A stretch of 39,194 bases of DNA. Source: a virus. Below the pieces are notes generated by a model. That model was not told the origin of the DNA. It did not search any database and saw only the letters and a list, made by a program, of their open reading frames with translations. Position numbers and translations under genes: made by a program. Below are positions 2,438 through 34,095 of this stretch, piece after piece (position 1 is the stretch's first letter; each line of letters begins with the position of its first letter). Location: UHGV virus genome UHGV-0142770; one strand, given 5' to 3'.

Positions 2438-4453
2438 TTACGCACTTCGTAATAAATGTTTAGACATAGCGGCAATACAGAAACAAGATAAGTCAGCGTA
2501 ATTTACACCATACATATCCGATTCTTTATCATAAGTAACCAGAGAATAGTCTGTAGGGTTAAGATTATATTTCTCCATAATCAGCATTACTTCTTGAGCC
2601 ATACATCCGAAGTGATACTTATCAGATTCTGCATCTGTCCATTTAAACTTTATCATGCTAATAGCTAATTCTAGCCCTGCACTATACTCTGCCGTAGATA
2701 TCTCATACACATCTTTACATCTACCGTCAGATGTTTGTATTACACCATTAGTTGCAAAGACAGTTTGCCATCTACGACTAGATTGACCACAAGTTCTTTG
2801 ATTATCTATCTGGGGGGCAACACTACCATCTATACGCAAATAGTTATCTTCCGCTTGTGCGCCTCCCATAACACCTTCTAAAAAAGGCAATCCTTTGTGA
2901 TTATTTACAATGAATTTATTGGAGGTATCTTCTGATATTCCGGTACCAGCATCTGGACCTATAAAAATATTACCATTTCCAGTTGGCAACTTTCTTCCTG
3001 CTCTTGCTCCTATCATAACATTCAGGTCACCTGAGGATAGGGAATTGAGGGCATCAACACCAATTGCTGTATTAAAATTACCTGTGAGAGTCCCAGTGTA
3101 TGGGTTCTCAGTTGATGATACTCCTCGCAATGCTCCATTACCTATAGCTGTGTTATGATCACCTTGCTTTAACTCCCTACCAGCTGCATTACCAATAAGG
3201 GTATTTCCATTACATTTATTATACCCAAGACGTACACCTTGAGGGTCTGTGTAGATGCCAGTACGCATTCCTGCAGAGCGTCCTATTGCAACATTAGCTT
3301 CTCCAGAATGGAGTTGCTGCAAAGCTGACATACCAACTGCAACATTGAACCTACCATCCTTACACTCGTTTAGCGCATCCCTGCCAATACCAATCATGTT
3401 ATTTCCAGTGGTGGCTTTCTTCAAAGCATTAATACCTATACTGATAATCTCTGTTCCAGAAAATGGCGACTTATCTGTAAGATCATCTTCTAGAGTATCT
3501 CCTGACAAACCACCCACACCAACCACGATTGTGTTAGTGCCGCTAGTTATGTTGCGACCAGAACTTGGTCCAAGCAAAACCAATTGATTACCTTTACCAG
3601 AGTCAGTGTAATTTTTTGCGGCATCATAACCTAAAATAAGGTTGCTATGAGACTGAGCTACATTGGTAAACGGAATTCGTTCCGCTCCTGTCTCTTTAAT
3701 TATTTTTCCTGGGCCATAAAATCTTCCATTAATATCTTCCGGCAATAAATACGTGCCATCAGGAACATAAACACCTTGTGGCGAAGCAGATGCCGCGGCA
3801 ATGAAAGCATCTGTATCATTTGTGACTCCATCACCTTTAGCGCCAAAGTCAAGAACACTGACAGTATCCCGCATCTTATCCTGAAACGTTCTATATACCG
3901 CGCCTGAACCATACTGAATAAACCAACCAAAACCACCAACAACTCCGGCGATTGCAGCATCGACATAATTACGCATTGAGCGATTATTTACAGCATCCTG
4001 CTCAAGTGATGGATCTGCAAGGTTAGAAATTCTGTTTTGCTTTGCATCGTAATATTTTGCAAGCAAAGATGGTTTCATCAATGCACGTCTGAACCACCCA
4101 AAACATTGCTGGATCAGCATCGTCAGGTAGTCAAAAGCATCTTCATGCACTTCGGGGAAAAATTTTCCCTGATTGCGAAGGTCTGTCTCCTGCACTACAT
4201 CAAGCACACGATCTATCGTAATTCGCCATCCAGCAGCAAGCGGAGACGGAAGAACAACAGAACCGCCACTATAAGTGCCCGCCCCAGTTACCGTATAACC
4301 GGTATCCAGAACCAATTCTGTTACGTTCCCGTTCAGGTCAGACACCTGAACAACCAGGTCTGATTTTTTGAAAATACGGAAGGTATACGGAAATGATGTC
4401 GTAACGCCGTTACCTGTGTATTCGTTGTGGTCAACTTCGGTTGAGACCGTCAT
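2438..4453 (-). CDS. Tail fibre/tailspike: T7 gp17-like N-terminal adaptor, pectate-lyase-like beta-helix, C-terminal intramolecular chaperone-like domain
   Basis: 671 aa. N-terminus (NEYTGNGVTTSFPYTFRIF...GWRITIDRV...) follows the T7 tail-fibre N-domain pattern; DFGAKGDGVTNDTDAF is a pectate-lyase-fold hallmark; Gly/Asn-rich repeats; C-terminus resembles endosialidase-type chaperone domains. 3' two-thirds is visibly AT-richer. Confidence 0.85.
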   Translation of the reverse strand: MTVSTEVDHNEYTGNGVTTSFPYTFRIFKKSDLVVQVSDLNGNVTELVLDTGYTVTGAGTYSGGSVVLPSPLAAGWRITIDRVLDVVQETDLRNQGKFFPEVHEDAFDYLTMLIQQCFGWFRRALMKPSLLAKYYDAKQNRISNLADPSLEQDAVNNRSMRNYVDAAIAGVVGGFGWFIQYGSGAVYRTFQDKMRDTVSVLDFGAKGDGVTNDTDAFIAAASASPQGVYVPDGTYLLPEDINGRFYGPGKIIKETGAERIPFTNVAQSHSNLILGYDAAKNYTDSGKGNQLVLLGPSSGRNITSGTNTIVVGVGGLSGDTLEDDLTDKSPFSGTEIISIGINALKKATTGNNMIGIGRDALNECKDGRFNVAVGMSALQQLHSGEANVAIGRSAGMRTGIYTDPQGVRLGYNKCNGNTLIGNAAGRELKQGDHNTAIGNGALRGVSSTENPYTGTLTGNFNTAIGVDALNSLSSGDLNVMIGARAGRKLPTGNGNIFIGPDAGTGISEDTSNKFIVNNHKGLPFLEGVMGGAQAEDNYLRIDGSVAPQIDNQRTCGQSSRRWQTVFATNGVIQTSDGRCKDVYEISTAEYSAGLELAISMIKFKWTDAESDKYHFGCMAQEVMLIMEKYNLNPTDYSLVTYDKESDMYGVNYADLSCFCIAAMSKHLLRSA

Positions 4454-4557
4454 GTTAAATCTCCAGATAGTCGCAGCACCCGTTGCGCCGCATATCTGGT
4501 TATTCTATTACCTGAAAAACCACATATGGATATAAAGACTGTGAATATGAATAGATA

Positions 4558-4572
4558 TTACCTTTCAGGTAA
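4558..4572. promoter_or_regulatory. Candidate repressor operator TTACCTTTCAGGTAA (TTACC-N5-GGTAA) in the divergent region between tail fibre and antirepressor operon
   Basis: Perfect 5-bp inverted arms with 5-bp spacer. The 16-mer ATTACCTTTCAGGTAA is identical to the site at 23446-23461. Confidence 0.5.
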
Positions 4573-4609
4573 TTTGCAAAACGTGCTGGATAGCAAACAA
4601 ATTATTTGA

Positions 4610-4629
4610 TACTGTATATTTATACAGTT
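4610..4629 (+). promoter_or_regulatory. LexA (SOS) box TACTGTATATTTATACAGTT upstream of the antirepressor operon
   Basis: CTGT at 4612-4615, 8-nt AT-rich spacer, ACAG at 4624-4627: matches the gamma-proteobacterial consensus CTGT-N8-ACAG. Sits about 20 nt upstream of the ATG at 4649. Confidence 0.8.
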
Positions 4630-4648
4630 ATTGCATGGAGAAGATAAG

Positions 4649-4906
4649 ATGCAGCAGTATCACTATCCACTGGAAGAGGGATTTACCGAAAGGATTCACA
4701 CGCCGGGAGGCGTCAGGTCACTGGTGGAGGGATCGCACTTGATGAAATTACTCCGGGATCTCGATAAGGATGGATTTAATGTCGATGGCCCACTTGCCGA
4801 ACTGACTGCACTGATTAACTACGTCACCAGCTCACAGATGTCTATGCAGGATCTGCAAACACATCTCGACTATTGTGCCGAACAATTACGAAAACAAACC
4901 AGATAA
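4649..4906 (+). CDS. Small protein homologous to the C-terminal domain of the downstream antirepressor; first gene of the LexA-controlled operon
   Basis: ATG 4649 with GGAG 8 nt upstream (track start 4631 is TTG). 85 aa. C-terminal ~60 aa aligns with the Ant C-terminus (DGFNVDGPLAELT...DLQTH vs DGHDVSGAAAELT...DIQTH). Confidence 0.6.
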   Translation: MQQYHYPLEEGFTERIHTPGGVRSLVEGSHLMKLLRDLDKDGFNVDGPLAELTALINYVTSSQMSMQDLQTHLDYCAEQLRKQTR

Positions 4907-4937
4907 GGTTTGTAATTACCAAATTGAGTGCTTATAT

Positions 4938-4952
4938 TTACCTTTGCGGTAA
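4938..4952. promoter_or_regulatory. Candidate repressor operator TTACCTTTGCGGTAA between the small ORF and ant
   Basis: Perfect TTACC-N5-GGTAA palindrome. Confidence 0.45.
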
Positions 4953-5045
4953 ATTTACATCGCACTCCTCTTGTGCCATAGTAATCGGGCACTGGCAAAA
5001 TCCAGTGCCGGGATTGGTCTCCCGGATTACTACAGAGGCACATAT

Positions 5046-5065
5046 GCCGCATAAGCGGTTTTTTT
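5046..5065 (+). terminator. Weak intrinsic terminator/attenuator between small ORF and ant
   Basis: Short GC stem (CCGC-ATAA-GCGG) followed by T7 run 5059-5065, preceded by two longer hairpins at 4988-5009 and 5008-5025. Confidence 0.4.
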
Positions 5066-5219
5066 ATGTGTAAAGCGCACCTATTCTATGGTGGGCTGTG
5101 TGGGGGCACCGAAAGGTGCGCCGGGTTCCTTTGTAGCCGGTAAGACCAACTCTGCACAGTTCACCACCATCTGATTGGTCTCAGCGGTGGTGATTAACCT
5201 AACTACAAAGGTGATCGCC

Positions 5220-5912
5220 ATGAATACCAAACCTTCCATCTTTTCCTTTGAGTCATCCTGCCAGATCCGTATGTTCATGATTGACGGAGAACCTTGGTTT
5301 GTCACCAAAGATGTGTGCAATGCTTTGAATATTGATGTTACACAAGCGAGAAAACTTGATAAAAAAGGCTGGAACAAAAAGGGGCTGTATTCAATACAGA
5401 CCCCTGGTGGAATACAAGAACTATCCATCGTTTCAGAATCAGGTCTCTACATCCTTATTCTGCGTTGCAAAGAGGCAATGACTGAGGGAACGAGAGCATT
5501 CAGATTTCTTGAATGGGTTACAGGCGAAGTACTTCCTCAGATCCGCCGCACCGGAAGTTACATTAAAAACTCGCTCCCGCAGGAAGAACGCATAAAGATG
5601 GTTGCCGACCAGGTAGCCAACGCCACGGCGTCAGCAGTAATGCAGGCGATGAAGATAGAGAACAAAACCTACAGTGCCCCACTGAAGCCCGGCTACCGCA
5701 GTCTGATTCATTCTCCGTCTGGTGTTCTCGGCCTGACGGAGAACTCACTGCTGATGAATCTGCTGAACCGGTTACAGGAAGACGGGCACGACGTATCGGG
5801 CGCGGCGGCGGAGCTGACCACCATGTTTTGCTACATCGTTGGTGTGAGCAAATGCCTGCGTGATATCCAGACACACGCGGAGTACATCAACGACAAAGCA
5901 GGGTTCTTCTGA
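5220..5912 (+). CDS. ant: Antirepressor (Bro-N domain, Ant-like)
   Basis: ATG 5220 with AAGGTGA 5 nt upstream. N-terminal FSFESSCQIRMFMIDGEPWFVTKDVCNALNI matches the Bro-N fold of prophage antirepressors. Downstream of a LexA box. Confidence 0.8.
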   Translation: MNTKPSIFSFESSCQIRMFMIDGEPWFVTKDVCNALNIDVTQARKLDKKGWNKKGLYSIQTPGGIQELSIVSESGLYILILRCKEAMTEGTRAFRFLEWVTGEVLPQIRRTGSYIKNSLPQEERIKMVADQVANATASAVMQAMKIENKTYSAPLKPGYRSLIHSPSGVLGLTENSLLMNLLNRLQEDGHDVSGAAAELTTMFCYIVGVSKCLRDIQTHAEYINDKAGFF

Positions 5913-6080
5913 CGGCGGCGGCACAGGGATGTGCCTTTAAATAATTCTGTACAGATTGCAGGTGAATAGCTTACTATTACCTCACGGGTGATCCATAGCG
6001 ATTAGGCACCGATACAGGAGGAGCCCACATGAGAAAATTTGACGAGTACGAAGGCGTTTAACATTCGGATAGTTTAATGA

Positions 6081-6102
6081 CGGGGCCATTAGGCCCCGTT
6101 TT
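6081..6102 (+). terminator. Intrinsic terminator downstream of ant and of a 10-codon mini-ORF
   Basis: Stem CGGGGCC 6081-6087, loop ATTA, stem GGCCCCG 6092-6098, then TTTT. Confidence 0.6.
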
Positions 6103-6120
6103 CATGTCTGGAGACAGTTT

Positions 6121-6660
6121 GTGTTAAGTGAAGAAATGCAATTTGCCATGGCTGTGGCTCAAATCGTAAGTGCAGTCGCGGTTTCGCTTGGCTTGTTCAT
6201 AGCTATCGCTACTATTATTTATAATGTAAATACAGCGAGAAAAGTACACACTTCAGTATTCCTTGGTGAAAGCAGGTTTGATGTAGATTATAAGAAAGGC
6301 CTATCTACTATGCGCCGCATTCACGAATCGAACAAATCATTCCGCTCTTATATGTATCCAAGCAATGGGCAGGCTGATCTTACGGATGAAGAAAAGACAG
6401 AGAAGAGAGAAATAATTTACTGTCTAGGTTTCTACGAACGCATGGCTGTGAGCGTGAAGCGGAAAACTTATGATGAGACCATGATTAAGGAAGTATTTTA
6501 CAGCTCCGTTGTAAATAACTATCAGATTGCGCTACCTCTTATACAAGCCATTAGAGAAAAAGAAAACATAAACACATATTTTAAAGAATATGAATGGTTG
6601 GCCACACGATGGAAGGATTGCCCATTGAAGGATAAATCCCCGTGGTACAAGTTTTGGTAA
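6121..6660 (+). CDS. AT-rich moron: membrane-anchored protein of unknown function (candidate exclusion/defence or conversion gene)
   Basis: 179 aa; GTG start 6121 with GGAGA 6 nt upstream (alternative ATG 6136). One N-terminal TM helix (AVAQIVSAVAVSLGLFIAIATIIY), Lys/Glu-rich body. Own terminator; AT-richer than flanks by eye. Confidence 0.6.
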   Translation: MLSEEMQFAMAVAQIVSAVAVSLGLFIAIATIIYNVNTARKVHTSVFLGESRFDVDYKKGLSTMRRIHESNKSFRSYMYPSNGQADLTDEEKTEKREIIYCLGFYERMAVSVKRKTYDETMIKEVFYSSVVNNYQIALPLIQAIREKENINTYFKEYEWLATRWKDCPLKDKSPWYKFW

Positions 6661-23446: not shown

Positions 23447-23461
23447 TTACCTTTCAGGTAA
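23447..23461. promoter_or_regulatory. Candidate repressor operator TTACCTTTCAGGTAA, 17 bp downstream of a TTGACA hexamer (23425-23430)
   Basis: Perfect palindrome, identical 16-mer to the site at 4557-4572, between the portal operon start and the tRNA. Confidence 0.5.
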
Positions 23462-23783: not shown

Positions 23784-23860
23784 GTGGCATTAGCTCAGTT
23801 GGACAGAGCAACCGCCTTCTAAGCGGTTGGTCGCAGGTTCGAATCCTGCATGCCACGCCA
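23784..23860 (+). tRNA. tRNA-Arg (anticodon UCU), phage-encoded
   Basis: 77 nt cloverleaf folded by hand: acceptor GTGGCAT/ATGCCAC, D-arm GCTC...GAGC, anticodon stem ACCGC/GCGGT with loop CTTCTAA (TCT at 23818-23820), T-arm GCAGG-TTCGAAT-CCTGC, discriminator G and encoded CCA. Closely resembles enterobacterial argU. Confidence 0.9.
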
Positions 23861-31029: not shown

Positions 31030-31044
31030 TTACCTCTAAGGTAA
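31030..31044. promoter_or_regulatory. Candidate repressor operator TTACCTCTAAGGTAA abutting a -10-like TTTAAT (minus-strand promoter)
   Basis: Perfect palindrome. On the minus strand TTGATT-N17-TTTAAT immediately precedes it, the same layout as the promoter at 34187-34229. Confidence 0.5.
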
Positions 31045-33440: not shown

Positions 33441-33455
33441 TTACCTGTTGGGTAA
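33441..33455. promoter_or_regulatory. Candidate repressor operator TTACCTGTTGGGTAA in the cro/CI divergent region
   Basis: Perfect palindrome; an imperfect copy (TTACCTATGAGGTGC, 33424-33438) lies 2 bp away, giving tandem sites 17 bp centre-to-centre. Confidence 0.5.
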
Positions 33456-33510: not shown

Positions 33511-34095
33511 ATGAAAAGTATCCAGGACGTCCGCAGGCAAAATCTCAACGACTTGATCGACCGTGAATTCAATGGTGTTCAGACGCGGATGGCAGAAAAA
33601 CTTGGAACTCAGGCAAATCTGGTAAACCGCTGGGCTCTTGGCAAGAAGGTTATCGGCGACCAGGTTGCGCGAAAAATTGAAGCTGCCGCCAATAAACCCC
33701 GTAACTGGCTTGATATCGATCGCTCGCTTTCTCAGGAAGGTTTTCAGCCTGTCGGCCCAAGCGACATTGGTCAGCTGGCAGCTCACAACCTGGAACGCTG
33801 GATGAGTGAAAGCCGCGACCTTTCAACTCAGGGAAAACTTCACCGCGCATCCGGCGTCGCCCAGGTGACAATAAGCCGCCTGTTAAACAATGAGGTCAGC
33901 GTTTCCATTTCCACCCTGGAGAATGTTGCATCTGCATTCGGGCGTCACGGATATGAACTACTGATCCATCCGCATGACCCTGCAACTATCAACTATGACC
34001 GCTCGCGCTACGCATTGTTACCTGAAACAGAGAAGGCAAAGATCGAAAGTTACATTGAATTTGTCATCAACCAGAACGAAAAAAACAAACAATAA
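33511..34095 (+). CDS. CI-like repressor, non-cleavable type (XRE HTH, no S24 peptidase motifs)
   Basis: 194 aa; N-terminal HTH (VQTRMAEKLGTQANLVNRWALGKK) like lambdoid repressors; C-terminal half lacks the Ser/Lys autopeptidase signature; divergent from cro and followed by a terminator. Confidence 0.65.
   Translation: MKSIQDVRRQNLNDLIDREFNGVQTRMAEKLGTQANLVNRWALGKKVIGDQVARKIEAAANKPRNWLDIDRSLSQEGFQPVGPSDIGQLAAHNLERWMSESRDLSTQGKLHRASGVAQVTISRLLNNEVSVSISTLENVASAFGRHGYELLIHPHDPATINYDRSRYALLPETEKAKIESYIEFVINQNEKNKQ

What the first reader, a model, noticed from the sequence alone, without database searches (positions are those of the whole stretch)
4649..5219. Standalone paralogue of the antirepressor C-terminal domain, separated from ant by three tandem hairpins
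The 85-aa product of 4649-4906 aligns over about 60 aa with the C-terminus of Ant (shared pattern P-G-V...L-E-S-L-M-LL-L-DG-V-G-AELT-V-D-QTH-Y). The 313-bp spacer before ant holds a perfect operator (4938-4952), hairpins at 4988-5009 and 5008-5025, and a short hairpin plus U7 (5046-5065). This looks like a domain duplication that could yield a dominant-negative or competitor of Ant, with attenuator/sRNA-like control between the genes.
Basis: seen in the sequence. Interest (0 to 1): 0.65.

Follow-up and report, generated by a model that had tools for sequence, protein, structure and literature searches.

The report
Two antirepressors, one RNA-gated
The small gene is the already-characterised SOS-controlled antirepressor of epsilon15/phiV10-type phages, and the "hairpins" after it are an IsrK sRNA plus a C4 antisense RNA that gate translation of a second, longer antirepressor carrying the same C-terminal domain, so every part is a known kind and only the combination appears undescribed.

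Summary
The 85-aa product of 4649-4906 and residues 149-222 of the 230-aa product of 5220-5912 are paralogues (BLASTP E=1e-19; z=30 against shuffles).

The interpretation needs correcting.
- The window is a phiV10/epsilon15-type (Uetakevirus) phage.
- The small protein is about 89% identical to Salmonella phage SPC32H Ant (PDB 5D50). It has a LexA box upstream, and a Rep homologue lies at 33511-34095. It is the primary antirepressor, not a dominant-negative fragment.
- The three hairpins are an IsrK sRNA (4989-5065).
- C4's two recognition segments pair with sites in IsrK and with sites over the ant2 ribosome-binding site. These pairings co-vary across 36 specificities in related elements.
- A Rep-type operator (9 exact copies in the window) abuts the IsrK promoter.
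- The long protein is Bro-N plus the Ant domain. Relatives carry AntA, Rha or ORF6N N-termini instead, with the same RNAs and a small Ant nearby.

Likely function: SOS drives the small Ant. A P1-immI/Gifsy-1-IsrK-type RNA gate, probably under Rep control, drives the long Ant. All parts are known kinds; I found no description of the combination.

The parts
4557..4573 (.). Rep-type operator ATTACCTTTCAGGTAAT upstream of the small ant gene, directly followed by TTGCAA
   Evidence: Exact TTACC-N5-GGTAA site. The same arrangement is present in SPC32H, Tyrion, Citrobacter and Klebsiella relatives.
4610..4629 (.). LexA (SOS) box TACTGTATATTTATACAGTT in front of the small ant gene
   Evidence: CTGT-N8-ACAG match at 4612-4627. 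It is conserved at the same place in SPC32H (CTGTATGTTTATACAG), Tyrion and Citrobacter. Klebsiella and Rahnella relatives carry a one-mismatch form, ATGT...ACAG.
4649..4906 (+). ant1: 85-aa SPC32H-type small antirepressor
   Evidence: phmmer against PDB 5d50_E gives E=1.6e-47. It matches phrog_450 at 1e-47. tblastn identity to the annotated 'ant' gene of SPC32H is 89%.
4937..4953 (.). Rep-type operator TTTACCTTTGCGGTAAA abutting the -35 hexamer of the IsrK promoter
   Evidence: Exact core at 4938-4952. An operator is present upstream of isrK in 68/73 modules followed by an Ant-domain gene, against 1/84 other isrK modules.
4954..4982 (+). Predicted promoter P_isrK: TTTACA, 17 nt, tgcCATAGT (extended -10). 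The predicted start is about 4989.
   Evidence: Promoter scan. Both hexamers are conserved with variable spacers in E. coli, Klebsiella and Rahnella relatives and in L205. The predicted start coincides with position 1 of the Rfam isrK model.
4989..5065 (+). IsrK-family sRNA: two 5' hairpins, a linker, and a terminator hairpin plus U7 (5046-5065). It carries site a1 (5014-5020, TTGGTCT) and site b1 (5030-5038, CTACAGAGG).
   Evidence: Rfam RF01394, 74.7 bits against a gathering score of 50. Terminator scan. Helices co-vary. The a1-a' pairing is 100% paired in 29 sequences, with 3 positions changed on both sides.
5084..5171 (+). C4-family antisense RNA: long closing stem, tetraloop hairpin, second hairpin whose loop is b' (5128-5136, CCTTTGTAG), then single-stranded a' (5143-5149, AGACCAA). 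The 3' end reads CACCACCA.
   Evidence: Rfam RF01695, 78.6 bits against a gathering score of 45. The structure is 98.8% paired, with 20 pairs changed on both sides in 29 sequences.
5175..5211 (+). C4 target in the ant2 leader: a2 (5175-5181, TTGGTCT) and b2 (5203-5211, CTACAAAGG). b2 includes the Shine-Dalgarno AAGG, 8 nt before the ATG.
   Evidence: Coordinates. The a'-a2 pairing is 100% paired, with 3 co-varying positions. A b'-b2 match of at least 8 nt occurs in 97% of 36 distinct specificities, against 4.7% for cross-module pairs.
5220..5912 (+). ant2: 230-aa antirepressor. Bro-N domain (aa 16-106), a roughly 40-aa linker, and a C-terminal SPC32H-Ant-like domain (aa 149-225).
   Evidence: Pfam Bro-N, 1.7e-13. 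5d50_E matches aa 149-225 at E=1.6e-13. phrog_130 and phrog_1760 'anti-repressor'. The 80%-identical orthologue ORF4 of phage vB_EcoP_ZX5 lowered lysogeny about 1000-fold when over-expressed (PMC9782041).
33511..34095 (+). rep: homologue of the SPC32H repressor, the presumed common target of both antirepressors. It lies outside the finding's coordinates.
   Evidence: 5d50_A 'Repressor', E=4e-42. It is flanked by operators at 33441, 34153 and 34215. SPC32H has the same layout.

Best explanation
This is the antirepressor (secondary immunity) region of a phiV10/epsilon15-type temperate phage. It holds two antirepressor genes that share one effector domain but are wired to different inputs.

(1) ant1 (4649-4906) is the orthologue of SPC32H Ant. 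LexA sits on its promoter. DNA damage removes LexA and Ant1 is made. By homology to the solved SPC32H complex, Ant1 then binds Rep and takes it off its operators.

(2) Downstream lies a P1-immI / Gifsy-1-isrK-type RNA cassette. A promoter abutted by a Rep operator makes IsrK. Most transcripts stop at the IsrK terminator. Read-through transcripts carry C4 and then ant2.

(3) C4 pairs through its loop b' and single strand a' with b2 and a2 over the ant2 Shine-Dalgarno. This blocks Ant2 translation.

(4) IsrK carries decoy copies of the same sites (a1, b1). Excess short IsrK can therefore titrate C4 and license Ant2 translation, as IsrK does for AnrP in Gifsy-1.

(5) No terminator separates ant1 from isrK, so the SOS-induced ant1 mRNA should itself end in IsrK.

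Net logic (inferred): SOS leads to Ant1, Rep comes off, P_isrK is derepressed, and IsrK outruns C4. Ant2, with the same Rep-directed domain, then reinforces and locks induction. On infection of a naive cell, where LexA is intact, Ant2 would be the only antirepressor made, and accumulating C4 would shut it off.

Shown here: the homologies, the site complementarities and their covariation, operator placement, and the conserved linkage of the parts.
Inferred: Rep binding by the Ant2 C-domain, the direction of IsrK action, and the circuit dynamics.
For: Identity of the parts:
- Small Ant matches 5d50_E at E=1.6e-47. The Ant2 C-domain matches the same chain at 1.6e-13. Rep matches 5d50_A at 4e-42.
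- The LexA box is conserved across genera.
- isrK and C4 both score above Rfam gathering thresholds, also in 7 related loci.

RNA pairing:
- Complementarity between b' and b1 and b2, and between a' and a1 and a2, is present in 82/84 distinct modules.
- With 36 distinct b' loops, own-module matches of at least 8 nt occur in 86% (b1) and 97% (b2), against 2.5% and 4.7% for cross-module pairs.
- a'-a2 and a1-a' are 100% paired in 29 sequences, each with 3 positions changed on both sides.
- b2 covers the ant2 Shine-Dalgarno.

Rep control:
- The operator motif occurs 9 times in the window against 0.01 expected, flanks rep, and shows the same pattern around SPC32H rep.
- The operator is tied to Ant-domain cassettes: 68/73 against 1/84.
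- Only one + strand terminator lies between ant1 and ant2, the IsrK terminator.

Conserved linkage:
- The small Ant, operator, isrK, C4 and N-domain-AntC gene stay together across Bro-N, AntA, Rha and ORF6N versions.

Experiments in relatives:
- IsrK in trans raises AnrP translation about 139-fold in Gifsy-1, and a stable RNA (STnc1160) is processed from the read-through transcript (PMC4825925).
- In P1, ant is blocked by C1 at the operon promoter and additionally by C4 antisense RNA (PMC8198154).
- ZX5 ORF4 (80% identical to Ant2; Rep 100% identical) reduced lysogens from 10^9 to 10^6 (PMC9782041).
Against: - Nothing here shows that the Ant2 C-domain binds Rep. It is only 37% identical to Ant1. 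The residues conserved in both paralogues could serve tetramerisation rather than Rep contact.
- The 5D50 interface could not be examined. The two primary SPC32H papers are not in the library.
- The AF2 model of Ant2 was poor (pLDDT 59.8) and its fold search recovered nothing.
- Ant and Rep do not co-diverge simply. Salmonella Rep is 42% identical to the window's, while Ant is 89% identical.
- Some prophages carry 2-3 long-Ant cassettes with near-identical Ant domains but different Bro-N domains. This suggests the N-domain, not the C-domain, is what differs functionally.
- Duplex energies for the window's own sites are only marginally better than shuffles. The case rests on covariation.
- If P_isrK is fully Rep-repressed, it is unclear where C4 comes from in a lysogen.
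- Promoters are predictions only. The scan found no more promoter-like sites than in shuffled sequence.
- The ZX5 over-expression experiment used a GST fusion and is coarse.
Confidence: 0.72

Rival explanations
1. First reader's model. The small protein is a truncated duplicate that acts as a dominant-negative or competitor of the long Ant, for example by forming dead mixed oligomers or occupying Rep without inactivating it.
For: The two share a domain. SPC32H Ant works as a tetramer (as summarised in PMC9638917), so mixed oligomers are conceivable. Natural small chimeras fuse the N-half of the small Ant to the C-half of the long Ant's domain (P0084, P0087, P0114), which shows the halves can be combined.
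Against: The orthologue in SPC32H is annotated and solved as the functional antirepressor, in a phage that has no long Ant. A LexA box is conserved in front of it. It co-occurs with Rep in essentially the same 35-36 phage records, whereas the long Ant is absent from all 12 Salmonella records. The small-Ant clade is as old as the long-Ant clade.
Confidence: 0.05
2. The shared C-terminal domain in the long protein is mainly an oligomerisation (tetramerisation) module. The real business end is the swappable N-terminal DNA-binding-type domain (Bro-N, AntA, Rha, ORF6N). Ant2 would then act on a target other than Rep, such as another prophage's repressor, host DNA or a defence system.
For: The domain is always C-terminal and is joined to four different N-domains. 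Prophages with 2-3 cassettes keep the Ant domain at 92-98% identity while the Bro-N domains are only 56-65% identical. In E. coli variants the whole protein is 75-80% identical but the C-domain is 98-99% identical.
Against: Every version examined stays linked to a Rep operator and a small Ant. Those N-domain families are the ones typical of proteins annotated as antirepressors. ZX5 ORF4 over-expression lowered lysogeny in a phage with an identical Rep. The positions invariant in both paralogues (Y, P, H-x-P-x-G, LL, G, E, Y, TH) span the whole domain and are not confined to one helix.
Confidence: 0.18
3. The RNA cassette mainly provides immunity between competing elements, as P1/P7 c4 heteroimmunity or P4 CI does, rather than feedback during SOS induction. 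C4 made by the resident prophage silences Ant2 of incoming phages of the same C4 type. Diversification of b' lets a phage escape a rival's C4.
For: There are 36 different b' loops and 4 a' types among otherwise similar modules. E. coli phages with identical Rep and Ant domains carry at least 3 b' types. Co-resident cassettes carry different b' loops. Most isrK-pattern loci in bacterial genomes lack Ant genes and look like other mobile elements that use the same RNA system.
Against: The operator on P_isrK would already silence an incoming phage with the same Rep specificity. This explanation is not exclusive of the main one, since it concerns the selective reason rather than the mechanism.
Confidence: 0.35

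Closest known systems
SPC32H Rep-Ant-LexA antirepression system (Kim & Ryu 2013, J Virol 87:11775; Kim et al. 2016, PNAS 113:E2480; PDB 5D50, 5D4Z). The papers' content is cited from my own knowledge and from summaries in PMC7380047 and PMC9638917.
   Same: The small Ant is about 89% identical. It holds the same position next to the tailspike gene, with the same LexA box and the same upstream operator. A Rep homologue is flanked by the same TTACC-N5-GGTAA sites.
   Different: SPC32H has only the small ant gene, followed directly by a membrane-protein gene on the other strand. The window adds an operator-isrK-C4-ant2 cassette. Rep is only 42% identical.
Phage P1/P7 immI operon c4-icd-ant (Citron & Schuster 1990, Cell 62:591). 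The a/b site nomenclature is from my own knowledge; an outline is in PMC8198154.
   Same: An antisense RNA of the same Rfam family (RF01695) is processed from the leader of an antirepressor operon. Two recognition segments match sites both upstream and over the downstream ribosome-binding site. The operon promoter is under the primary repressor's operator. A second, small antirepressor exists elsewhere (Coi in P1).
   Different: There is no icd-like coupled ORF. b2 sits directly on the ant2 Shine-Dalgarno, and the ORF inside C4 is not conserved. The upstream sites lie in a separately terminated sRNA (IsrK). The antirepressor's effector domain is the SPC32H type, and the repressor is unrelated to C1.
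Gifsy-1 isrK-orf45(STnc1160)-anrP locus (Hershko-Shalev et al. 2016; PMC4825925)
   Same: The gene order is the same: promoter, IsrK sRNA with a leaky terminator, a stable processed RNA, then the antirepressor gene. The sRNA belongs to the same Rfam isrK family.
   Different: The Gifsy-1 work explains activation through alternative mRNA folds and translational coupling via orf45. Here no such ORF is conserved, and the sites fit a simple decoy / antisense / RBS scheme. The promoter here carries a Rep operator. The antirepressor has a different C-terminal domain, and a LexA-controlled paralogue lies just upstream.
Satellite P4 CI RNA with seqA/seqC
   Same: [quoted passage not shown] Most isrK-pattern loci in bacterial genomes lack Ant genes, yet show the same a/b complementarity rules.
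   Different: P4 CI acts by causing premature transcription termination of replication genes. Here the target overlaps the translation start of an antirepressor.
LexA-controlled small antirepressors: Tum of coliphage 186 and the Gifsy and Fels-2 antirepressors (Shearwin 1998; Lemire 2011; summarised in PMC7380047)
   Same: SOS induction works through synthesis of a small antirepressor rather than repressor cleavage.
   Different: No sequence relationship to Tum was seen in the Pfam or PDB searches. No paralogous RNA-gated second copy is described for those systems.
vB_EcoP_ZX5 ORF4 'anti-repressor' (PMC9782041)
   Same: It is the orthologue of Ant2 (80% identical) in a phage with a 100% identical Rep. 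Over-expression shifted the phage away from lysogeny.
   Different: That paper does not mention the small Ant, LexA, SPC32H, IsrK or C4.

Membership tests
SPC32H-type small antirepressor (Ant; phrog_450) | Sequence homology over the full length to SPC32H Ant (PDB 5D50 chain E) | tested here: met
   E=1.6e-47 over residues 2-84. 89% identity to the SPC32H ant gene.
SPC32H-type small antirepressor (Ant; phrog_450) | LexA box at the promoter (SOS control) | tested here: met
   CTGTATATTTATACAG at 4612-4627, 21 nt before the ATG. It is conserved in SPC32H and other genera. LexA binding itself was not tested.
SPC32H-type small antirepressor (Ant; phrog_450) | Cognate Rep repressor encoded in the same genome | tested here: met
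   33511-34095 matches 5d50_A at E=4e-42. Rep and Ant occur in essentially the same 35-36 phage records.
SPC32H-type small antirepressor (Ant; phrog_450) | Binds Rep and releases it from the operator | not testable with these tools
   Needs pull-down or EMSA.
C4 antisense RNA (Rfam RF01695; P1/P7 c4 type) | Covariance-model score above the gathering threshold, with full-length structure | tested here: met
   78.6 bits against 45, model positions 1-87. Helices are 98.8% paired, with 20 pairs changed on both sides.
C4 antisense RNA (Rfam RF01695; P1/P7 c4 type) | Two recognition segments complementary to sites over the ribosome-binding site of the downstream gene, and to a second set upstream | tested here: met
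   a' 5143-5149 pairs with a2 5175-5181 and a1 5014-5020. b' 5128-5136 pairs with b2 5203-5211 and b1 5030-5038. Covariation is shown.
C4 antisense RNA (Rfam RF01695; P1/P7 c4 type) | Lies in the leader of an antirepressor operon controlled by the primary repressor | tested here: met
   ant2 follows at 5220. The operator at 4937-4953 abuts the -35 hexamer. Repression itself was not tested.
C4 antisense RNA (Rfam RF01695; P1/P7 c4 type) | Excised from the precursor transcript (by RNase P in P1) | not testable with these tools
   Only the 3' CACCACCA motif is visible.
C4 antisense RNA (Rfam RF01695; P1/P7 c4 type) | Translationally coupled upstream ORF (icd in P1) | tested here: not met
   The ORF from the invariant AUG in the C4 stem varies from 8 to more than 45 codons among relatives. 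b2 lies on the ant2 Shine-Dalgarno itself.
IsrK sRNA (Rfam RF01394) | Covariance-model score above the gathering threshold | tested here: met
   74.7 bits against 50, model positions 1-77.
IsrK sRNA (Rfam RF01394) | Own promoter and rho-independent terminator, with read-through into an antirepressor gene | tested here: inconclusive
   A terminator hairpin plus U7 lies at 5046-5065, and a conserved TTTACA-17-CATAGT promoter is predicted. Transcript ends and read-through need RNA data.
IsrK sRNA (Rfam RF01394) | Activates translation of the downstream antirepressor in trans; Hfq-binding | not testable with these tools
   Shown only for Gifsy-1 (PMC4825925).
Bro-N antirepressors (Pfam PF02498 N-domain; phrog_130, phrog_1760) | N-terminal Bro-N domain plus a variable C-terminal domain | tested here: met
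   Bro-N at aa 16-106, E=1.7e-13. phrog_1760 covers aa 130-230.

The most novel reading that the evidence does not exclude
The SPC32H-type Ant domain is a portable Rep-directed 'warhead'. These phages deploy it twice. One copy is a free SOS-triggered protein. The other is fused to interchangeable Bro-N, AntA, Rha or ORF6N heads behind a Rep-operated IsrK/C4 gate. The ant1 mRNA itself ends in IsrK, so DNA damage both makes Ant1 and delivers the decoy that unlocks Ant2 translation. This would give a feed-forward, self-locking induction switch. The many orthogonal C4 specificities would let co-resident cassettes and rival phages be gated independently.
Probability: 0.3. Interest if true: 0.6.

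Novelty: new variant of a known kind. Interest (0 to 1): 0.45.

Why it matters
The finding links three lines of work that the papers I could search do not connect: the SPC32H Rep/Ant structural work, P1 c4 antisense immunity, and Gifsy-1 IsrK.

It shows all three in one 1.3-kb locus of a common E. coli prophage family. That makes several questions directly testable:
- whether IsrK works as a decoy for a C4-type antisense RNA;
- whether one repressor-binding domain is reused under SOS and RNA control;
- what the swappable Bro-N, AntA, Rha and ORF6N heads add.

It also corrects annotation. The 85-aa 'hypothetical protein' of phiV10-type phages is the primary SOS antirepressor, and two RNA genes are unannotated in the related records examined (phiV10, Tyrion).

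Practically, phiV10-type phages are used as O157 reporter and typing phages, so their induction control is of some interest.

Tried and rejected
- The primary SPC32H papers (J Virol 2013, PNAS 2016) could not be read by DOI or PMC id. Rep-contact residues of Ant could therefore not be mapped onto Ant2.
- The AlphaFold2 model of Ant2 from a 12-sequence alignment was low confidence (pLDDT 59.8, pTM 0.36). Foldseek against the PDB gave nothing below E=0.07 and did not recover 5D50. No structural conclusion is drawn.
- RNAduplex energies of the window's own a and b sites against shuffled targets were weakly discriminating: 7 to 157 of 1000 shuffles were as good. I relied on covariation instead.
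- The profile search of 5.8 billion proteins listed only standalone small Ants in its top 120. The fused architectures came from the 50%-representative search.
- A conserved orf45/icd-like coding frame across C4 was looked for and rejected.
- PADLOC gave no defence-system hit for Ant1, Ant2 or the DUF4760 neighbour.
- The repeat finder in 4440-6140 added nothing relevant.
- I considered that most isrK hits in bacterial genomes would be Ant-linked. They are not: 75 of 80 loci had no Bro-N or Ant-domain hit anywhere in the locus.
- The exact -10/-35 hexamers of the LexA-controlled ant1 promoter could not be assigned convincingly from sequence.
Full report
**What is at the coordinates**

The window is a complete or nearly complete phiV10/epsilon15-type (Uetakevirus) phage genome. 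The region 4400-6100 is 91-98% identical to Escherichia phages EC.W1-9, TL-2011b, vB_EcoP_ZX5 and phiV10. The finding lies between the tailspike gene (2438-4453, minus strand) and the virion/ejection genes (from 7378, minus strand).

The 85-aa ORF (ATG 4649, stop 4904-4906) and the 230-aa ORF (5220-5912) are both real open frames.

**The observation**

BLASTP aligns the whole small protein, without gaps, to residues 149-222 of the long one: 31/74 identical, E=1e-19. The Smith-Waterman score is 159, against 26.4 +/- 4.4 for 2000 shuffles (z=30).

The 15-nt inverted repeat at 4938-4952, the two hairpins and the hairpin plus U7 are all present.

**What the small protein is**

- It hits one PDB sequence, chain E of 5D50 'Anti-repressor protein', at E=1.6e-47.
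- tblastn shows 89% identity to the gene annotated 'ant: anti-repressor protein' in Salmonella phage SPC32H.
- The long protein's residues 149-225 hit the same chain at E=1.6e-13. Its residues 16-106 are a Pfam Bro-N domain.
- The partner of that chain in 5D50, 'Repressor', has a homologue at window 33511-34095 (E=4e-42).
- A canonical LexA box, CTGTATATTTATACAG, lies at 4612-4627, 21 nt before the ATG. The equivalent box is present in SPC32H, Tyrion and a Citrobacter prophage. Klebsiella and Rahnella relatives carry it with one mismatch.

[quoted passage not shown] SPC32H itself has no long Ant. There, ant is followed directly by a membrane-protein gene on the other strand. The small protein is therefore the known, primary, SOS-controlled antirepressor of this phage group. 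It is not a fragment that interferes with 'the' Ant.

**What the spacer is**

Rfam places two families in the 313-bp spacer, both above their gathering scores:
- isrK (RF01394) at 4989-5065, 74.7 bits against 50.
- C4 antisense RNA (RF01695) at 5084-5171, 78.6 bits against 45.

A promoter-like site, TTTACA-17-tgcCATAGT (4954-4982), predicts a start at about 4989, which is position 1 of the isrK model. Its hexamers are conserved while the spacer varies in E. coli, Klebsiella and Rahnella relatives and in a more distant contig.

The operator at 4937-4953 abuts the -35 hexamer.

**The operator**

TTACC-N5-GGTAA occurs 9 times exactly in the window, against 0.01 expected. The sites are:
- one before ant1 (4558) and one before isrK (4938);
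- three flanking rep (33441, 34153, 34215);
- a pair at 31030 and 31092;
- single sites at 23447 and 26983.

A one-mismatch copy follows ant2 at 5976.

Both pairs, 31030/31092 and 34153/34215, are spaced 62 bp. The SPC32H rep region shows the same motif 7 times, including 62-bp pairs. I therefore read it as the Rep operator. This is an inference from position, because I could not read the primary papers.

Among 157 distinct isrK modules collected here, 68 of 73 followed by an Ant-domain gene have this operator just upstream. Only 1 of 84 others does. Many of the 73 are closely related E. coli prophages, so they are not independent.

**How C4 reads its targets**

In the window:
- The loop of C4's second hairpin (b', CCUUUGUAG, 5128-5136) is complementary to CUACAAAGG at 5203-5211. 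That target contains the ant2 Shine-Dalgarno, 8 nt before the ATG.
- The same loop pairs, with one G-U, to CUACAGAGG in the IsrK linker (5030-5038).
- The single-stranded segment a' (AGACCAA, 5143-5149) is complementary to UUGGUCU at 5175-5181 and to the loop of IsrK hairpin 2 (5014-5020).

Duplex energies alone are not convincing. Comparative evidence is.

I collected 80 IMG/VR loci with Ant2 homologues and 120 bacterial loci matching an isrK pattern.
- 82 of 84 distinct modules show all four complementarities.
- There are 36 different b' loops. Each matches its own b1 and b2 over at least 8 nt in 86% and 97% of cases. Non-cognate pairs do so in 2.5% and 4.7%.
- On a 29-sequence alignment, a'-a2 and a1-a' are each 100% paired, with three positions changed on both sides. 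The internal helices of IsrK and C4 co-vary too: 20 pairs changed on both sides, and 0/500 shuffles reach the score.
- E. coli phages with the same Rep and the same Ant domains carry at least three b specificities and two a specificities in different combinations.

This is the logic known for P1/P7 c4 (my own knowledge: Citron & Schuster 1990). PMC8198154 states that full repression of P1 ant needs C1 at the operon promoter plus C4 antisense RNA.

**Relation to IsrK of Gifsy-1**

The Gifsy-1 locus has the same order: promoter, IsrK with a leaky terminator, a stable RNA (STnc1160) processed from the read-through transcript, then the antirepressor gene anrP. IsrK supplied in trans raises anrP translation 139-fold (PMC4825925).

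The authors explain this by alternative mRNA folds and by coupling through a 45-codon ORF. Here the ORF that starts at the invariant AUG in the C4 stem ranges from 8 to more than 45 codons among relatives. It is 28 codons in the window, 15 in L002 and 35 in phiV10. No coding function is conserved.

The site arrangement suggests a simpler reading. C4 masks the ribosome-binding site, and IsrK carries decoy sites that titrate C4. That reading is my inference. It is compatible with the Gifsy-1 data but has not been tested.

**The long antirepressor and the shared domain**

The small (S) and long (L) forms make two clades. Each has parallel E. coli, Klebsiella and Rahnella branches, and S-L identity is 35-43% throughout. 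The duplication is therefore old and both copies have been kept.

Fourteen positions are invariant across both clades (Y4, P7, H17, P19, G21, L25, S29, L34, L35, G42, E51, Y58, T71, H72 in small-Ant numbering).

The family is small: 68 hits at E<=0.001 among 1.84 billion representative proteins. The domain is either free or C-terminal. N-terminal partners are Bro-N, AntA, Phage_pRha and ORF6N.

In the loci I could inspect, the operator, isrK and C4 precede the fusion gene and a small Ant lies nearby:
- AntA version, L204;
- ORF6N version, L205, where the small Ant is convergent;
- Rha version, L148.

Within the E. coli phages the long protein is 75-80% identical overall, but its C-domain is 98-99% identical.

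In the phage collection, Rep (36 records) and small Ant (35 records) occur in essentially the same records. The long Ant is present in most E. coli records, in Tyrion and in three of four Klebsiella records. It is absent from all 12 Salmonella records.

The one experiment on a long Ant is in phage ZX5, whose Rep is 100% identical and whose ORF4 is 80% identical to Ant2. Over-expression cut lysogens from 10^9 to 10^6 per ml (PMC9782041). That paper does not mention the small Ant, LexA, SPC32H or the RNAs.

**Proposed mechanism**

Steps shown by sequence and homology:
- LexA box, then ant1;
- Rep operator on a conserved promoter;
- IsrK with a terminator;
- C4;
- C4 sites on the ant2 ribosome-binding site and in IsrK;
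- ant2 encoding the same domain as Ant1.

Steps inferred:
1. SOS removes LexA, and Ant1 takes Rep off DNA.
2. P_isrK is then derepressed. Terminated IsrK outnumbers C4 and relieves the block on Ant2, which reinforces Rep inactivation.
3. No + strand terminator lies between ant1 and the IsrK terminator. The ant1 mRNA should therefore end in IsrK and deliver decoy sites itself.
4. On infection of a naive cell, LexA keeps ant1 off. Ant2 is then the only antirepressor, and accumulating C4 shuts it down, as in P1 immI.

**Weak points**

- Rep binding by the Ant2 C-domain is not shown.
- The source of C4 in a fully repressed lysogen is unclear.
- Ant (89%) and Rep (42%) do not co-diverge between E. 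coli and Salmonella phages.
- 11 of 80 loci carry two or three cassettes with near-identical Ant domains but different Bro-N domains and different b' loops. This hints that the N-domains do something distinct.

**Novelty**

Each component belongs to a described family, and the small protein is essentially a known protein. In the papers I could search, I did not find the following described together:
- the long 'Bro-N antirepressor' of phiV10-type phages carries the SPC32H Ant domain;
- it sits behind an IsrK/C4 gate with a Rep operator;
- this pair of differently wired paralogues is conserved across several genera and four N-domain types.

I rate it a new variant of known kinds, of moderate interest.

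Noticed in passing
window 5976-6110: A third operator copy (ATTACCTCACGGGTGAT, one mismatch) follows the ant2 stop. After it come a strong Shine-Dalgarno with a 10-codon ORF (6030-6062, MRKFDEYEGV) and a GC hairpin plus T-run (about 6081-6106), just before the DUF4760 gene. This looks like a Rep-controlled leader or attenuator for the downstream gene.
   Followed up: no
window 6121-6660: This is a DUF4760 membrane-type protein (Pfam 8.3e-31) with no PADLOC hit. A homologue sits between the small ant gene and isrK in a Klebsiella prophage (L093), so it behaves as a mobile moron within the antirepressor region. IMG/VR loci with about 830 bp extra between ant1 and the operator may carry the same kind of insert.
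   Followed up: partly
L005, L006, L015, L018, L019, L022, L031, L034, L050, L058, L062: 11 of 80 related prophage loci carry two or three operator-isrK-C4-BroN-Ant cassettes, often convergent. The Ant domains are 92-98% identical between copies, but the Bro-N domains are only 56-65% identical. The copies whose loop was read carry a different C4 b' loop from the window-like cassette.
   Followed up: partly
P0084, P0087, P0114 (84-aa proteins from the protein search): These are natural chimeras. The N-terminal half is that of a small Ant and the C-terminal half is that of a long Ant's domain, joined at the shared DGHDVSGAAAE motif. They look like products of recombination between the two paralogues that deletes isrK, C4 and the Bro-N part.
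   Followed up: partly
window 31030/31092 and 34153/34215; L207 1788/1850 and 4156/4218: Operator pairs are spaced exactly 62 bp centre to centre, both in the window and in SPC32H. This fits a repressor tetramer bridging two sites.
   Followed up: no
L082-L201 (bacterial genome loci): The isrK/C4 module is widespread in Enterobacterales, Aeromonas and Vibrio. In 75 of the first 80 loci the locus has no Bro-N or Ant-domain hit at all. These are probably P4-like satellites or other islands. They obey the same a1/a'/a2 and b1/b'/b2 rules, with b2 usually ending in GGAG.
   Followed up: partly
L001 (phiV10) 3341-3996: In the phiV10 reference record the long Ant is split by a frameshift into a 194-aa Bro-N protein (p23) and a 29-aa ORF (p22). 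The Ant-like C-domain is thus disrupted, or mis-sequenced, in the type phage.
   Followed up: partly
window 23784-23860: A tRNA-Arg (anticodon TCT) gene lies here, with an operator copy about 320 bp upstream at 23447.
   Followed up: no
window 4454-4648: The tailspike gene diverges from ant1 and is cut off from the other late genes by the plus-strand ant region. The operator at 4557-4573 lies between the two divergent genes and could also control a leftward tailspike promoter.
   Followed up: no
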